Of a stretch of DNA of 64,000 bases, positions 58,683 to 62,722 are shown in pieces. This DNA comes from Escherichia phage CJY920, in sequence record PQ349265.1; one strand, given 5' to 3'. The notes under the pieces are model-generated. The model was not told where the DNA came from. It searched no databases and worked only from the letters and a program-made list of their open reading frames with translations. Each line of letters begins with the position of its first letter. The first letter of the stretch is position 1. The position numbers were made by a program, and so were the translations under genes.

Positions 58683-59186
58683 ATGAATGCTTTTACACAC
58701 CATTCTGATGCTAGAGTAGAAGAAATTTGTAAAAACGATTATATCCCACCATTTGAAGACTTACTCAAGCAGTATTGCACACTTCGATTAGATGGTGGCA
58801 GACAATCCGGTAAATCAACTGCTGTGACTAACTTTGCTGCTAATTGGCTGTATGATGGTGGAACAGTTATTGTTCTTTCTAATACTTCAGCTTACGCTAA
58901 AATTTCTGCAGGCCACATTAAAAAAGAATTTTCTCGTTATTCTGGCGATGATATTCGATTCCGCTTATTTACCGATTCTGTCCGTAGTTTTATCGGTAAT
59001 AAAGGAAGCAAGTTCAGAGGTTTATCGCTTTCGCGGATTTTGTATATAATCGATGAGCCTGTTAAATCTCCTGATATGGATAAAATTTACGATATTCATA
59101 TTGAAACTGTGCACCACTGTTGCAATAGTAAATGCTGCATTGGTGGTATTACTCGTCCACAGTTTTTCATAATCGGAATGCAATGA
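58683..59186 (+). CDS. P-loop NTPase-like protein
   Basis: 167-aa ORF; Walker A GGRQSGKST and Walker B-like ILYIIDEP; weak RBS. Confidence 0.45.
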   Translation: MNAFTHHSDARVEEICKNDYIPPFEDLLKQYCTLRLDGGRQSGKSTAVTNFAANWLYDGGTVIVLSNTSAYAKISAGHIKKEFSRYSGDDIRFRLFTDSVRSFIGNKGSKFRGLSLSRILYIIDEPVKSPDMDKIYDIHIETVHHCCNSKCCIGGITRPQFFIIGMQ

Positions 59187-59520: not shown

Positions 59521-59884
59521 ATGAAAGCATATCAAATTCTTGAAGGCACGCATAAAGGTACTATTTATTTTGAAGACGGTATTCAAGCACGAATTATTGT
59601 CCTCTAAAACTTTTAAAGAGGACTCTTTTGTAGACCCAGAAATTTTCTATGGTTTGCATGCCCGTGAAATTGAAATTGAAACACAGCCTACAGTTAAAAT
59701 TGAGGGTGGTCAACACCTGAACGTTAACGTTCTGCGTCGTGAAACTCTGGAAGATGCAGTTAAGCATCCGGAAAAATATCCGCAGCTGACCATCCGTGTA
59801 TCCGGTTATGCAGTTCGCTTTAACTCTCTGACTCCGGAACAGCAGCGCGACGTTATCGCTCGTACCTTTACTGAGAGTCTGTAA
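59521..59884 (+). CDS. autonomous glycyl-radical cofactor (GrcA/YfiD-like), reading frame interrupted by an apparent 1-nt frameshift near 59600
   Basis: C-terminal [60 protein letters not shown] has the glycyl-radical motif RVSGYAV; ATG-initiated frame (59521-59607) stops after ...GIQARIIVL while the main frame (from 59540) has no ATG. Confidence 0.65.
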
Positions 59885-60363: not shown

Positions 60364-60641
60364 TGGCCCAATTAAGCGCAGGGTTTGGTTATGAGTATTA
60401 TACTGCCCCTCGTCGTGTATCTGTTGCTCCTAAGAAAATTCAAAGTCTTGATGACTTCCAGGAAGTAGTCCGTAAAGCTTTCCAGGACTATGCACGTTAT
60501 CTTAAAGAAGATTCGCAGGACTGTCTCGAAGAAGATGAAATTGCTTACTATGAGCAGCGTCTTGAACAGCTCAAAAACCTACATGAGGTTCGTGCAGAAG
60601 TTTCAAAGTCTATGAATAAATTGATTAGATTTAAAGAATAA
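60363..60641 (+). CDS. hypothetical protein
   Basis: Track ORF starts at 60321; TAATG overlap start at 60363 gives 92 aa. Confidence 0.45.
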
Positions 60642-60680
60642 CTGTTTACTTTTCCTCTTGACTGTGGTATAATTTTTCTA
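60636..60680 (+). promoter_or_regulatory. T4-type early promoter upstream of the regB-like gene
   Basis: GTTTAC at 60644-60649, 18 nt spacer, TATAAT at 60668-60673. Confidence 0.55.
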
Positions 60681-60700
60681 TCAGTTAAGAGGAGAATAAC

Positions 60701-61162
60701 ATGACTATCAACACAGAAGTTTTTATCCGTCGAAATAAGCTCCGTCGTCACTTTGAGTCGGAGTTTCGTCAAATTAACAATGAGATTCGTGAGGCATCAA
60801 AAGCAGCAGGAGTCTCATCGTTTCATCTAAAATATTCTCAGCATCTTCTTGATCGTGCAATTCAGCGGGAGATTGATGAGACATATGTTTTTGAATTATT
60901 CCACAAAATAAAAGACCATGTTTTAGAAGTTAATGAATTCCTGAGTATGCCTCCGCGTCATGACATTGACGAGGATTTTATTGATGGGGTTGAATATCGT
61001 CCTGGACGTTTAGAAATCACAGATGGAAATCTTTGGCTTGGATTTACAGTTTGTAAACCTAATGCGAAGTTCAAAGACCCGTCACTTCAGTGTAGGATGG
61101 CAATTATCAACAGTCGTCGTTTACCAGGAAAGGCTTCTAAAGCAGTAATTAAAACTCAATGA
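60701..61162 (+). CDS. regB: RegB-like site-specific endoribonuclease
   Basis: 153-aa ORF (the T4 RegB length as I recall); position upstream of vs/tk-region genes; AGAGGAG RBS. Confidence 0.55.
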   Translation: MTINTEVFIRRNKLRRHFESEFRQINNEIREASKAAGVSSFHLKYSQHLLDRAIQREIDETYVFELFHKIKDHVLEVNEFLSMPPRHDIDEDFIDGVEYRPGRLEITDGNLWLGFTVCKPNAKFKDPSLQCRMAIINSRRLPGKASKAVIKTQ

Positions 61163-61169
61163 GGTAAGC

Positions 61170-61715
61170 ATGAGAAAAGCACTACTCGCTGGTCTATTGG
61201 CCATTTCAATGATGGCACATAGCTCCGAGCATACTTTCAGTAATGTCCAACTCGATAACATGCGTTACGCGTATCAATTCGGGGAACAATTTTCCAAGGA
61301 TGGAAAATATAAAACACATAAAAATATCCACAAGAGCGGATTAGGTCATATAATGGCTGCTATTTTATGGCAAGAAAGCTCTGCCGGAGTTAATTTAAAA
61401 TCTAAACCAAAGCATCATGCCTACGGAATGTTCCAAAACTATTTGCCGACCATGCGTGCAAGAGTTAAGGAACTTGGTTATAATATGACTGATGCTGAAA
61501 TAAAAAGAATGTTGAATAAACGGTCCAATTCAGCTTCCTGGGCGTACATTGAACTTTCTTATTGGTTAAATATACATAAGGGAGATATAAGAAAGGCAAT
61601 ATCCTCTTATAATTCGGGATGGAATGTTAAAGCAGGTTCTAAATATGCTTCTGAAGTCCTAGAAAAGGCTAACTACCTTAAAAATAATAAACTGTTGGAA
61701 ATAGTAAATGACTAA
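61170..61715 (+). CDS. secreted lytic-transglycosylase-like (SLT-domain) protein
   Basis: Signal peptide MRKALLAGLLAISMMAHS; SLT motifs ILWQESSAG (catalytic Glu-Ser), AYGMFQ and SSYNSGWN. Confidence 0.55.
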   Translation: MRKALLAGLLAISMMAHSSEHTFSNVQLDNMRYAYQFGEQFSKDGKYKTHKNIHKSGLGHIMAAILWQESSAGVNLKSKPKHHAYGMFQNYLPTMRARVKELGYNMTDAEIKRMLNKRSNSASWAYIELSYWLNIHKGDIRKAISSYNSGWNVKAGSKYASEVLEKANYLKNNKLLEIVND

Positions 61716-62049
61716 AATTTTGGTTTTATGTATAGGATTAATTTCATTTTCTGCGTTAGCAAATACATCATATACTGAAATTAGAGAGTATGTAAACCGT
61801 ACTGCCGCGGATTATTGCGGGAAAAATAAAGCATGCCAAGCTGAATTTGCGCAGAAATTAATATATGCATATAAAGACGGAGAAAGAGATAAATCAAGCA
61901 GATACAAGAACGATACTTTATTAAAACGATATGCTAAAAAGTGGAATACCTTAGAATGTTCAGTTGCGGAGGAGAAAGATAAAGCCGCTTGTCATTCAAT
62001 GGTTGACCGTTTGGTAGATTCTTATAATCGAGGATTGAGCACTAGATGA
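61708..62049 (+). CDS. small secreted protein with four Cys
   Basis: Sec-type signal peptide MTKILVLCIGLISFSALA with AxA-like cleavage site; 113 aa. Confidence 0.5.
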   Translation: MTKILVLCIGLISFSALANTSYTEIREYVNRTAADYCGKNKACQAEFAQKLIYAYKDGERDKSSRYKNDTLLKRYAKKWNTLECSVAEEKDKAACHSMVDRLVDSYNRGLSTR

Positions 62050-62513
62050 TTGTAAAATATATCAAGGGCGATATTGTCGCCCTTTTCACTGAAGGTAAAA
62101 ATATTGCGCATGGATGCAATTGTTTTCATACTATGGGTTCAGGCGTAGCGGGTCAATTAACCAAAGCTTTCCCTAAAATTTTGGAAGCTGATAAATTACA
62201 GACTGAATGGGGTAATGTAACTAAACTCGGTTCTTACTCAGTCTATGAAAAATACTTTAGGACTCATAAAGCGTATTGCTTCAACCTTTATACTCAATTT
62301 CAACCAGGGCCAAATTTTGAGTATTCCGCTTTAATGAATTGTATGTTAGAATTAAATGAGTTTGGTGAAAATAAACTGATTAAACCTACAATCTATATGC
62401 CTAGGATTGGTGCAGGCATAGGTAAAGGGAACTGGGATATTATTGAGGGGATTTTAGATACATATTCCTCTAAATTAGAAATTGTGATTGTTGATTGGGA
62501 ACCGTTATTATGA
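62046..62513 (+). CDS. macro-domain (ADP-ribose binding/processing) protein
   Basis: GDIVALFTEGKNIAHGCNCFHTMGSGVAGQL and PRIGAGIGKG resemble macro-domain signature regions; 155 aa. Confidence 0.55.
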   Translation: MIVKYIKGDIVALFTEGKNIAHGCNCFHTMGSGVAGQLTKAFPKILEADKLQTEWGNVTKLGSYSVYEKYFRTHKAYCFNLYTQFQPGPNFEYSALMNCMLELNEFGENKLIKPTIYMPRIGAGIGKGNWDIIEGILDTYSSKLEIVIVDWEPLL

Positions 62514-62722
62514 ATATACATTATCCACATCCATATGACCCAAAGAATAAGGTAGTAATTATTCGTCAATGGGAACGCATTTGCCGTACTAAATGTCCAA
62601 TTAATAGTCCGCATGATGTAGATAAAGACTACATTGGAACATTCGTTGAATATACCTTTATTGATAAGAAAGGTCGTAAACAGCATGTAGAAGAATACTG
62701 CTTAAAGGTTACATGGTTATGA
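62510..62722 (+). CDS. hypothetical small protein
   Basis: ATGA overlap start; 70 aa; Cys/His-containing. Confidence 0.4.
   Translation: MNIHYPHPYDPKNKVVIIRQWERICRTKCPINSPHDVDKDYIGTFVEYTFIDKKGRKQHVEEYCLKVTWL

What the first reader, a model, noticed from the sequence alone, without database searches (positions are those of the whole stretch)
61170..62049. Adjacent early genes encode two exported proteins: an SLT-type lytic-transglycosylase-like enzyme and a small Cys-containing periplasmic protein
The 61170 ORF has a typical signal peptide and three SLT-domain signature regions (WQESS with the catalytic Glu, AYGMFQ, SSYNSGWN). The overlapping next ORF (61708) also has a Sec signal peptide (AxA site) and four cysteines. 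A periplasmic murein-cleaving enzyme paired with a small periplasmic partner, expressed from the early region downstream of a regB-like gene, is not part of the known lysis cassette (e, t, rI). It could remodel the wall, act in superinfection exclusion, or be an enzyme/inhibitor pair.
Basis: partly seen in the sequence, partly recalled or inferred. Interest (0 to 1): 0.55.

Follow-up and report, generated by a model that had tools for sequence, protein, structure and literature searches.

The report
T4 vs.1–vs exported gene pair
The two ORFs are the known phage T4 early genes vs.1 (a secreted cell-wall-cutting enzyme of the lytic-transglycosylase type) and vs (textbook "valyl-tRNA synthetase modifier"), and vs looks like a secreted, disulfide-bonded partner of vs.1, which is hard to reconcile with its annotated cytoplasmic role.

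Summary
The window is a Tequatrovirus (98.5% identical to T4-like phages). ORF 61170-61715 is T4 vs.1 and ORF 61708-62049 is T4 vs.

vs.1 is a divergent SLT/GH23 enzyme:
- Pfam SLT scores above its gathering cut-off, and 23 of 24 homologs also hit.
- Glu69, G-M-F-Q and Y-N-x-G are invariant.
- A signal-peptide-like N-terminus occurs in 24 of 24 homologs.
- The SLT similarity was already published (Nolan 2006).

Its family nevertheless has these features:
- A signal peptide in 41 of 42 members, replaced by a canonical lipobox (LSGC) in one clade.
- Four invariant mature cysteines.
- A position directly after vs.1 (gap -8 to +3 nt) in 53 of 59 loci, including Acinetobacter phages that lack regB.

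Published transposon data show that vs and vs.1 share a roughly 10-fold fitness cost, and that vs is T4's most depleted gene in minimal medium.

The most likely reading is an early, exported two-protein periplasmic module: a lytic transglycosylase plus a small regulator or partner. Export, enzyme activity, binding and the relation to ValRS are all untested. The genes are known. The pairing and the localisation conflict are, as far as I could find, not described.

The parts
60645..60673 (+). Sigma-70-type promoter-like site (TTTACT-17-TATAAT, with TG) upstream of regB. It probably drives regB-vs.1-vs-tk.4.
   Evidence: This is a consensus match only: 12 sites were found in the region against 13.2 expected by chance.
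60701..61162 (+). regB endoribonuclease gene, the conserved upstream neighbour of vs.1.
   Evidence: Pfam REGB_T4, E = 4.4e-67. Adjacent upstream of vs.1 in 48 of 59 loci.
61170..61715 (+). vs.1: a 181-aa precursor of an exported SLT/GH23-fold lytic-transglycosylase-like enzyme. The mature protein would be about 163 aa, 18.8 kDa, pI 9.65.
61170..61223 (+). Predicted Sec signal peptide of Vs.1 (residues 1-18, cleavage AHS|SE).
   Evidence: Heuristic n/h/c-region test positive in 24 of 24 homologs, although the sequence itself is poorly conserved.
61374..61376 (+). Codon of Glu69 (WQES), the predicted catalytic acid.
   Evidence: Invariant in 24 homologs of 40-99% identity.
61419..61436 (+). SLT motif II (AYGMFQ, residues 84-89).
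   Evidence: A84, G86, F88 and Q89 are invariant.
61605..61619 (+). SLT motif III (S-Y-N-S-G, residues 146-150).
   Evidence: Y147, N148 and G150 are invariant.
61708..61715 (+). 8-nt overlap (ATGACTAA) between the vs.1 stop and the vs start, giving translational coupling.
   Evidence: The gap is -8 to +3 nt in 53 of 59 loci.
61708..62049 (+). vs: a 113-aa precursor of a small four-helix protein with four conserved cysteines. It is annotated 'valyl-tRNA synthetase modifier'. The mature protein would be about 95 aa, 11.0 kDa.
   Evidence: Equals T4 vs at 96-98% identity. phrog_1256, E = 6.5e-40. AlphaFold2 gives four helices at pLDDT 75.
61708..61761 (+). Predicted Sec signal peptide of Vs (residues 1-18, cleavage ALA|NT).
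   Evidence: Heuristic positive in 41 of 42 non-redundant family members. A lipobox (LSGC) replaces it in one clade. The only length difference from T4 Vs (113 against 115 aa) lies here.
61816..61836 (+). Cys37-x5-Cys43 (CGKNKAC) at the turn between helix 1 and helix 2. This is a putative disulfide.
   Evidence: Both cysteines are invariant in 22 diverse homologs. The disulfide itself is inferred.
61957..61992 (+). Cys84-x10-Cys95 spanning the turn between helix 3 and helix 4. This is a putative second disulfide.
   Evidence: All 42 family members have this Cys pair, spaced x8 or x10. The disulfide itself is inferred.
62046..62513 (+). tk.4 macro-domain gene (context only). Its start overlaps the vs stop (ATGA).
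   Evidence: Pfam Macro, E = 2e-6. Named AdfM, an anti-DarTG2 factor, in bioRxiv 10.1101/2025.11.20.689424. Adjacent to vs in only 27 of 59 loci.

Best explanation
The two ORFs are the T4-type early genes vs.1 and vs. They most likely form one exported, two-protein periplasmic module.

(1) regB-vs.1-vs are transcribed early from the promoter upstream of regB. vs is translated by coupling to vs.1 through the 8-nt overlap.

(2) Both precursors are exported by Sec and processed by signal peptidase I. In one clade Vs is instead made as a lipoprotein.

(3) Mature Vs.1 is a basic protein of about 19 kDa with a single catalytic Glu and the GH23/SLT fold. It would cleave MurNAc-GlcNAc bonds of the host sacculus as a lytic transglycosylase. 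The action would be local or limited, not bulk lysis.

(4) Mature Vs is a four-helix protein of about 11 kDa, stapled by two disulfides formed in the periplasm. It would act on or with Vs.1, most likely by binding and restraining or targeting it. The pair would thereby tune wall integrity or remodelling in the infected cell. This would explain why loss of either gene is costly, and why loss of vs is worst in minimal medium.

What is shown and what is inferred. Gene identity, fold, motif conservation, signal-peptide-like N-termini, cysteine conservation, coupling and synteny are shown here. Early expression and the fitness costs come from published data. Export, disulfides, enzymatic activity, the Vs-Vs.1 interaction and its sign (inhibitor or activator) are inferred.
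For: Identity.

Vs.1 as an SLT/GH23 enzyme:
- Pfam SLT above its cut-off, and 23 of 24 homologs hit, best E = 1.3e-7.
- The top ~30 Foldseek matches are almost all lysozyme-like enzymes (lytic transglycosylases, lysozymes, GH23/GH19 chitinases), at probability up to 1.0.
- E69, G86, F88, Q89, Y147, N148 and G150 are invariant.

Export:
- Signal-peptide heuristic positive in 24 of 24 Vs.1 and 41 of 42 Vs-like proteins.
- A canonical lipobox (LSGC) in four Vs orthologs.
- Four invariant mature cysteines lie at the helix-hairpin turns.
- Indels among close relatives are confined to the signal peptide.
- Full-length N-terminally His-tagged Vs is insoluble in the E. coli cytoplasm (PMC8076793).

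Pairing:
- A Vs homolog lies directly after vs.1 in 53 of 59 loci, against 48 for regB and 27 for tk.4.
- The pairing persists in Acinetobacter phages that lack regB and tk.4.
- The divergent forms belong to one family (hhalign probability 99.0%, E = 5e-18).

Expression: both genes give early RNA and a detected protein.

Fitness (HIDEN-SEQ supplement):
- Insertion read means in LB are 26.6 for vs and 22.6 for vs.1, against 178.6 for regB, 289.6 for tk.4 and 652 for vs.3.
- M9 against LB: log2 fold change -2.19 for vs (q = 0) and -0.87 for vs.1 (p = 0.0055).
- On clinical strain CFE299: -1.20 for vs.1 (q = 0.015).
Against: - Classical biochemistry assigns vs to a roughly 10-kDa factor that binds cytoplasmic valyl-tRNA synthetase (Muller & Marchin 1975 and 1977, as cited in PMC8076793). 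The 10-kDa size, and my recollection of genetic evidence for an in vivo link with valS(ts), are from memory and were not verified here.
- No signal-peptide predictor, export data, activity data or interaction data were available.
- The sequence link of Vs.1 to SLT is weak: a profile search against PDB sequences was not significant.
- Vs has no detectable similarity to any known lysozyme or transglycosylase inhibitor.
- regB-vs.1 adjacency is almost as conserved as vs.1-vs, so synteny alone is not proof of a functional link.
- Transposon insertions in vs.1 may simply be polar on vs.
- More distant secreted Vs.1-like proteins (Ackermannviridae, Felixounavirus, Chrysonvirus) have no adjacent Vs, so the enzyme does not strictly need Vs.
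- The M9 phenotype of vs is equally compatible with a translation-related role.
Confidence: 0.45

Rival explanations
1. The annotation is right. Vs is a cytoplasmic protein that binds and modifies host valyl-tRNA synthetase. Its hydrophobic N-terminus is not a working export signal, or only part of the pool is exported. Its position next to vs.1 is ordinary conserved synteny in a tightly packed early operon. Vs.1 would then be an independent exported SLT-like enzyme.
For: - The annotation 'valyl tRNA synthetase modifier' appears in the T4 reference and in hundreds of records.
- Biochemical papers are cited in PMC8076793.
- A vs knockout impairs plaques specifically on M9 glucose, where translation and amino-acid supply are limiting.
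- regB-vs.1 adjacency is nearly as conserved as vs.1-vs.
- Vs.1-like proteins exist without Vs in other phage families.
Against: - The signal-peptide character is conserved in 41 of 42 family members while the sequence there drifts.
- One clade has a canonical lipobox, and lipoproteins are extracytoplasmic.
- Four invariant cysteines sit at the hairpin turns of a small helical protein. This is typical of oxidised periplasmic proteins, not cytoplasmic ones.
- The family's pI ranges from 4.3 to 9.05, so there is no conserved charge surface.
- The mature size of 11.0 kDa fits the remembered 10-kDa factor better than the 12.9-kDa precursor. If so, the signal peptide would have been cleaved and the protein would have passed through Sec (the factor size is from memory).
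- I could not find or check the evidence that tied the genetic vs locus to this particular ORF.
Confidence: 0.3
2. Both proteins are exported but act independently. Vs.1 would be an accessory wall-remodelling or superinfection-related enzyme. Vs would have a different periplasmic or envelope target, for example sensing or protecting the envelope, with no direct Vs-Vs.1 contact.
For: - The export signals are as above.
- T4 already has independent exported early or periplasmic factors, namely Spackle and RI (PMC8385771, listed).
- In Klebsiella phage KM3 the Vs-like gene lies 1.2 kb from the vs.1-like gene.
- The M9 effect is stronger for vs than for vs.1.
Against: - The adjacency is directly coupled in 53 of 59 loci across deep divergence, and persists where the flanking genes change.
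- The two genes show similar baseline fitness costs.
Confidence: 0.15
3. Vs.1 is a back-up or accessory endolysin (signal- or SAR-type) that contributes to final lysis. Vs would be its antidote until lysis.
For: - The lysozyme-like fold with an N-terminal export signal.
- PHROG hits to endolysin-type families at weak E-values.
Against: - The genes are expressed early, not late.
- Established T4 genetics (from memory): e-defective T4 does not lyse, so Vs.1 cannot supply bulk lytic activity.
- Both genes are dispensable in LB.
Confidence: 0.07

Closest known systems
Family 1 (SLT/GH23) lytic transglycosylases: E. coli Slt70, MltC, MltE (EmtA), Pseudomonas MltF and Slt, and the specialised small EtgA of type III secretion
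   Same: - The Pfam SLT match.
- A single conserved Glu in an E-S motif, plus G-x-x-Q and Y-N-x-G motifs.
- The predicted periplasmic location.
   Different: - Sequence identity is very low, 13-20%.
- It is a stand-alone domain of about 163 aa with an extra N-terminal helical segment.
- It is encoded by a lytic phage as an early, non-structural, non-lysis gene.
- Its activity has never been shown.
T4 Spackle (sp) and the gp5 tail lysozyme: a small Sec-exported T4 protein that inhibits a phage muramidase in the periplasm
   Same: Conceptually this is the nearest precedent. Spackle is a small, early, signal-peptide-bearing, cysteine-containing periplasmic protein of the same phage that controls a cell-wall-cleaving enzyme (annotation; its mechanism is from memory).
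   Different: - There is no homology: hhalign probability is 1.2%.
- Spackle is acidic (pI 4.6) whereas T4 Vs is basic (pI 9.05).
- sp is not adjacent to gene 5.
- Vs-Vs.1 binding is only inferred.
Proteinaceous lysozyme and transglycosylase inhibitors or immunity proteins (Ivy, PliG, Tsi3 for Tse3)
   Same: - These are small periplasmic proteins, often disulfide-bonded or lipoproteins, and often encoded next to or acting on GH23-type enzymes.
- PliG-lysozyme and Tse3-Tsi3 complexes appear among the structural neighbours of Vs.1 (ranks 7 and 14).
   Different: - No functional data exist.
T4 Vs as described in the literature (tau factor, valyl-tRNA synthetase modifier; Pfam PF26829, phrog_1256)
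   Same: It is the same gene and family by sequence.
   Different: The described role is cytoplasmic. The family's conserved signal peptide or lipobox, its four cysteines and its coupling to an exported enzyme all point to the periplasm.

Membership tests
SLT domain / GH23 family-1 lytic transglycosylases (Pfam PF01464) | Profile match at or above Pfam's gathering score | tested here: met
   23.4 bits against a cut-off of 21.3, E = 4.8e-5. 23 of 24 homologs match at E <= 0.01, best 1.3e-7. The margin is thin. A family profile against PDB sequences was not significant.
SLT domain / GH23 family-1 lytic transglycosylases (Pfam PF01464) | Lysozyme-like, mainly helical, two-lobe fold | tested here: met
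   [not shown]
SLT domain / GH23 family-1 lytic transglycosylases (Pfam PF01464) | Catalytic Glu in an E-S motif, plus motifs G-[LM]-x-Q and A/S-Y-N-x-G | tested here: met
   E69, G86, F88, Q89, Y147, N148 and G150 are invariant, and S70 nearly so (90% or more), in 24 homologs of 40-99% identity. The same motifs are visible in 30%-identical relatives from Ackermannviridae and Felixounavirus.
SLT domain / GH23 family-1 lytic transglycosylases (Pfam PF01464) | Non-hydrolytic cleavage of peptidoglycan giving 1,6-anhydro-MurNAc ends | not testable with these tools
   This needs purified mature protein and muropeptide LC-MS.
Sec-exported proteins with a signal peptidase I or II signal | Positively charged n-region, hydrophobic h-region of 7-15 residues, small residues at -3/-1 (or a lipobox), conserved in character across homologs | tested here: met
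   A home-made heuristic was positive in 24 of 24 Vs.1 and 41 of 42 Vs-like proteins. A lipobox (LSGC) occurs in four. Only 3 of 65 window ORFs pass a similar filter. SignalP and LipoP were not available.
Sec-exported proteins with a signal peptidase I or II signal | Actual translocation and cleavage | not testable with these tools
   This needs fractionation, reporter fusions or N-terminal mass spectrometry.
T4 Vs family (PF26829, phrog_1256, 'valyl-tRNA synthetase modifier') | Sequence membership | tested here: met
   96-98% identity to T4 Vs. phrog_1256, E = 6.5e-40. All homologs carry a precomputed PF26829 hit.
T4 Vs family (PF26829, phrog_1256, 'valyl-tRNA synthetase modifier') | Binds host valyl-tRNA synthetase in the cytoplasm of the infected cell | not testable with these tools
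   Only citations were available. The sequence features found here, namely the export signal, the lipobox clade and the four conserved cysteines, argue against a cytoplasmic site but do not test binding.
Periplasmic lysozyme / lytic-transglycosylase inhibitors (Spackle, Ivy, PliC/MliC, PliG, Tsi3) | Homology or shared fold with a known inhibitor | tested here: not met
   [not shown]
Periplasmic lysozyme / lytic-transglycosylase inhibitors (Spackle, Ivy, PliC/MliC, PliG, Tsi3) | Binds and inhibits its cognate enzyme | not testable with these tools
No complex prediction or assay was possible.

The most novel reading that the evidence does not exclude
T4 Vs is not, in the living infected cell, a cytoplasmic modifier of valyl-tRNA synthetase. 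It is a Sec-exported, disulfide-bonded periplasmic protein, a lipoprotein in some phages, that partners with the Vs.1 lytic transglycosylase. The 50-year-old 'ValRS modification' would then be a post-lysis association of the basic mature protein with ValRS, or at most a moonlighting activity. The minimal-medium requirement for vs would reflect envelope physiology, not translation.
Probability: 0.3. Interest if true: 0.75.

Novelty: new member of a known kind. Interest (0 to 1): 0.5.

Why it matters
T4 is the reference phage, and vs is one of its few 'named' early genes. Its biological role has never been explained.

A 2025 transposon screen found vs to be T4's strongest conditionally essential gene in minimal medium and read this through the ValRS annotation. 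If Vs is really a periplasmic partner of an exported lytic transglycosylase, three things follow:
- That phenotype needs a different explanation.
- Hundreds of genome annotations are misleading.
- T4-like phages gain a conserved early wall-remodelling module, alongside Spackle, Imm and RI, whose purpose is open. Candidates are envelope stability during infection, lysis inhibition and superinfection.

If the annotation is right after all, a conserved signal peptide and lipobox on a cytoplasmic factor would itself need explaining.

Tried and rejected
- Single-sequence and family-profile searches of Vs.1 against PDB sequences found nothing significant. Only fold comparison and Pfam link it to SLT.
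- Vs had no sequence match in PDB, and only chance-level hits in Pfam (Cauli_AT, E = 0.07) and NCBIfam (a Hok hit on the signal peptide, E = 0.16).
- An exhaustive profile search of 1.84 billion representatives found only 8 relatives of Vs, all of similar small size or fragments (45-119 aa).
- Vs as a Spackle homolog was rejected (hhalign probability 1.2%).
- A charge-complementarity argument for or against a Vs-Vs.1 complex was dropped. The Vs family's pI ranges from 4.3 to 9.05.
- The promoter and terminator scan was at chance level and adds little.
- I could not trace how the genetic vs locus was assigned to this ORF. Miller 2003 and Muller & Marchin 1975 are not held, and literature searches found nothing on it.
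- No paper in the library describes Vs as exported or links it to Vs.1.
- An endolysin role for Vs.1 is considered unlikely because of its early timing and the classical e-mutant phenotype.
Full report
**1. What is at the coordinates**

The window is a T4-like phage. Bases 60600-62600 are 98.5% identical to Escherichia phage Pu-Krd-SF4, and 638 phage records hold at least 80% of this stretch. Gene order matches the T4 reference: regB, vs.1, vs, tk.4, tk.3, tk.2, tk.1, tk.

- ORF 61170-61715 (181 aa) is T4 vs.1, annotated 'hypothetical protein'.
- ORF 61708-62049 (113 aa) is T4 vs, annotated 'valyl tRNA synthetase modifier'. It is 96-98% identical to T4 Vs. The only length difference is a 2-residue indel in the N-terminal hydrophobic segment.
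- The two ORFs overlap by 8 nt (ATGACTAA). The vs stop overlaps the tk.4 start (ATGA).

One correction: Vs has five cysteines, one in the signal peptide and four in the mature part.

**2. Vs.1 is a divergent SLT/GH23 enzyme. This is confirmed but not new.**

- Pfam SLT scores 23.4 bits against a gathering score of 21.3. 23 of 24 homologs (40-99% identity) also match, best E = 1.3e-7.
- An AlphaFold2 model built from the family alignment has pLDDT 87.
- The top ~30 Foldseek matches in the PDB are almost all lysozyme-like enzymes: lytic transglycosylases, g-type and other lysozymes, and GH23 and GH19 chitinases. Probability is up to 1.0 and TM-score about 0.5.
- Glu69 (WQES), G86/F88/Q89 and Y147/N148/G150 are invariant. 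The only other invariant acidic residue is E128. A single-Glu lytic transglycosylase is therefore more likely than a two-carboxylate lysozyme. This last step is inference.
- Plain sequence searches against PDB find nothing, so the relationship is remote.

The SLT similarity of vs.1 was reported in 2006. That paper found Pfam SLT at E = 0.012-0.74 in 6 of 6 T4-like genomes and cited earlier PSI-BLAST matches in the T4 genome paper (PMC1524935). Some records already call the protein 'transglycosylase SLT domain containing protein'.

By tblastn the family occurs in 2084 phage records. As well as T4-like phages, these include Ackermannviridae, Felixounavirus and Chrysonvirus.

**3. Both proteins look exported**

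No signal-peptide predictor was available, so I used an n/h/c-region heuristic. It is positive for 24 of 24 Vs.1 homologs and 41 of 42 non-redundant Vs-like proteins. A similar filter passes only 3 of 65 ORFs in the window, and two of those are these ORFs.

Sequence in this segment drifts while its character is kept. That is the usual behaviour of signal peptides.

In one clade, which on matching contig lengths includes Cronobacter phage Pet-CM3-4, the Vs ortholog starts MKKLFVLLVVFALSGC|K. This is a canonical lipobox. Lipoproteins are extracytoplasmic by definition.

The four mature cysteines of Vs are conserved across the whole family. In the AlphaFold2 model (four helices, pLDDT 75) they sit at the helix 1/helix 2 turn (C-x5-C) and the helix 3/helix 4 turn (C-x10-C). 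Two hairpin-stapling disulfides are the natural reading, but this is inferred.

Full-length N-terminally His-tagged T4 Vs was insoluble when made in the E. coli cytoplasm (PMC8076793). This fits weakly.

Vs.1 is uniformly basic (pI 9.2-9.9), as wall-binding enzymes tend to be. The pI of Vs varies from 4.3 to 9.05.

**4. vs.1 and vs are a conserved, coupled pair**

A single-sequence search finds few Vs relatives (6 clusters; 8 among 1.84 billion representatives). I therefore surveyed the gene downstream of vs.1 in 50 IMG/VR loci plus annotated phages.

- In almost every case the next ORF starts within -8 to +3 nt of the vs.1 stop. It is 99-122 aa long, has a signal peptide, and shows the same four-Cys pattern with a C-terminal Y-x-x-G-L motif.
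- The 'T4-type' and 'short-type' forms are one family (hhalign probability 99.0%, E = 5e-18). A profile search shows that Pfam PF26829 and existing annotations already cover both, including Acinetobacter phages 133, Acj9 and ZZ1.
- Across 59 loci with a vs.1 homolog, Vs is directly adjacent in 53 and nearby in one. regB is adjacent upstream in 48, and tk.4 is adjacent downstream in only 27.
- The pair persists in Acinetobacter phages where regB and tk.4 are absent from the neighbourhood.

Exceptions:
- Aeromonas phage AS-gz has an unrelated 75-aa ORF and then a lipoprotein-like 146-aa ORF in that position.
- Klebsiella phage KM3 has its Vs-like gene 1.2 kb away.
- The distant Vs.1-like proteins of Ackermannviridae, Felixounavirus and Chrysonvirus have no adjacent Vs.

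Many loci are close relatives and the whole early region is syntenic. The counts therefore overstate independent support.

**5. Published functional data**

Both genes give early RNA, and both proteins are detected by proteomics (PMC9697503 supplement).

The HIDEN-SEQ transposon study (bioRxiv 10.1101/2025.11.20.689424) classes both genes as non-essential in LB. Its data still show a shared cost:

| Gene | Mean insertion reads in LB |
|---|---|
| vs | 26.6 |
| vs.1 | 22.6 |
| regB | 178.6 |
| tk.4 | 289.6 |
| vs.3 | 652 |

- In M9 glucose, vs is the most depleted T4 gene (log2 fold change -2.19, q = 0). A vs knockout plaques poorly on M9.
- vs.1 moves the same way but more weakly (-0.87, p = 0.0055, q = 0.155).
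- On clinical strain CFE299, vs.1 is significantly depleted (-1.20, q = 0.015) and vs similarly but not significantly (-1.04).

The authors read the M9 effect through the ValRS annotation. The data fit a shared pathway. They fit equally well polarity of vs.1 insertions on the coupled vs gene.

**6. The conflict**

The annotated role of Vs is binding to cytoplasmic valyl-tRNA synthetase (Muller & Marchin 1975 and 1977, as cited). A conserved export signal, a lipobox clade, four conserved cysteines and coupling to an exported enzyme are not what one expects of a cytoplasmic factor.

The mature protein would be 95 aa and 11.0 kDa, against 12.9 kDa for the precursor. From memory, the purified factor was about 10 kDa. 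That size fits a processed, and hence exported, protein better.

I could not retrieve the papers that tied the genetic vs locus to this ORF. I therefore cannot say whether the ORF assignment rests on protein sequence or only on map position.

Three possibilities remain:
- The ORF is mis-assigned.
- Mature Vs meets ValRS only after cell breakage.
- Vs is dual-located.

Genetic evidence for an in vivo link with valS(ts) strains, also from memory and not checked, argues for some real connection.

**7. Mechanism proposed**

I propose an early, Sec-exported periplasmic module. Vs.1 makes limited lytic-transglycosylase cuts in the sacculus. Vs, a disulfide-stapled four-helix protein, binds and restrains or targets it. 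The nearest precedents are Spackle with gp5 lysozyme, Ivy with MltB, and Tsi3 with Tse3.

Vs is homologous to none of these. If the role holds, Vs would be a new fold for that job.

Because e-defective T4 does not lyse (established T4 genetics, from memory), Vs.1 cannot be a bulk lysin. My estimates are:

| Claim | Probability |
|---|---|
| Both proteins are exported | about 0.8 |
| They work together | about 0.5 |
| The full model | about 0.45 |

**8. Verdict**

The genes and the SLT similarity are already known, so the finding as written is mostly re-discovery. Two things appear undescribed in the literature I could search: the conserved pairing, and the strong sequence case that the 'valyl-tRNA synthetase modifier' is an exported protein. 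Both are cheap to test and bear on a fresh, unexplained phenotype. Interest is moderate (0.5).

Noticed in passing
window 62046-62513: tk.4 encodes a macro-domain protein (Pfam Macro, E = 2e-6). A 2025 preprint names it AdfM, an anti-DarTG2 counter-defence factor. Many records still call it 'phosphatase'.
   Followed up: partly
phage records H10, H32, H45, H61; UniRef names of P0008 and P0038: Vs.1 homologs are repeatedly mislabelled 'endoribonuclease RegB' or 'site-specific RNA endonuclease'. The error was apparently propagated from the neighbouring regB gene. 'valyl-tRNA synthetase' (the enzyme, not the modifier) is likewise used for vs in many records.
   Followed up: no
window 62064-62084: A perfect 8-bp hairpin (AAGGGCGA-TATTG-TCGCCCTT) lies just inside the 5' end of tk.4, 15 nt after the vs stop. 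The scan scored it as terminator-like only on the minus strand. It could affect tk.4 translation or mRNA stability.
   Followed up: no
L006 2821-3246 and 3246-3545 (Acinetobacter phage AC4): The two ORFs after the vs.1-vs pair also start with signal-peptide-like or transmembrane-like segments (MKLKAALLSLLLVSPFAAA..., MKKMVLIASSLILLGAGIYY...). That makes four consecutive genes for exported proteins.
   Followed up: no
L005 2599-3357 (Aeromonas phage AS-gz): Vs is missing here. Between vs.1 and the macro-domain gene lie an unrelated 75-aa ORF and a 146-aa ORF with a lipoprotein-like start (MKKTIAALFALSVYGC). This may be a non-homologous replacement.
   Followed up: no
window 59540-59884: The vs.6 ORF carries the C-terminal glycyl-radical motif ([12 protein letters not shown]) of GrcA/YfiD-type spare-part proteins, as noted in the T4 annotation and in Nolan 2006.
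   Followed up: no
window 58683-59186: A 167-aa ORF with a P-loop-like GGRQSGKST motif lies in the vs.8 position. It is shorter than T4 vs.8 (219 aa), so this locus varies among close relatives.
   Followed up: no
L057 1953-2570, L058 2001-2549, L060 1980-2504: The secreted Vs.1-like proteins of Ackermannviridae, Felixounavirus and Chrysonvirus phages carry their own 2-4 cysteines, including a C-terminal Cys, and have no Vs neighbour. T4-type Vs.1 has no cysteines. Stabilisation may be built in there and supplied in trans by Vs in T4-like phages. This is speculation.
   Followed up: no
HIDEN-SEQ supplement, Data S9: On clinical E. coli strain CFE299, T4 pseT is strongly required (log2 fold change -5.27), and rnh and rpbA are also depleted. 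vs.1 is among the 11 significant genes in that comparison.
   Followed up: no
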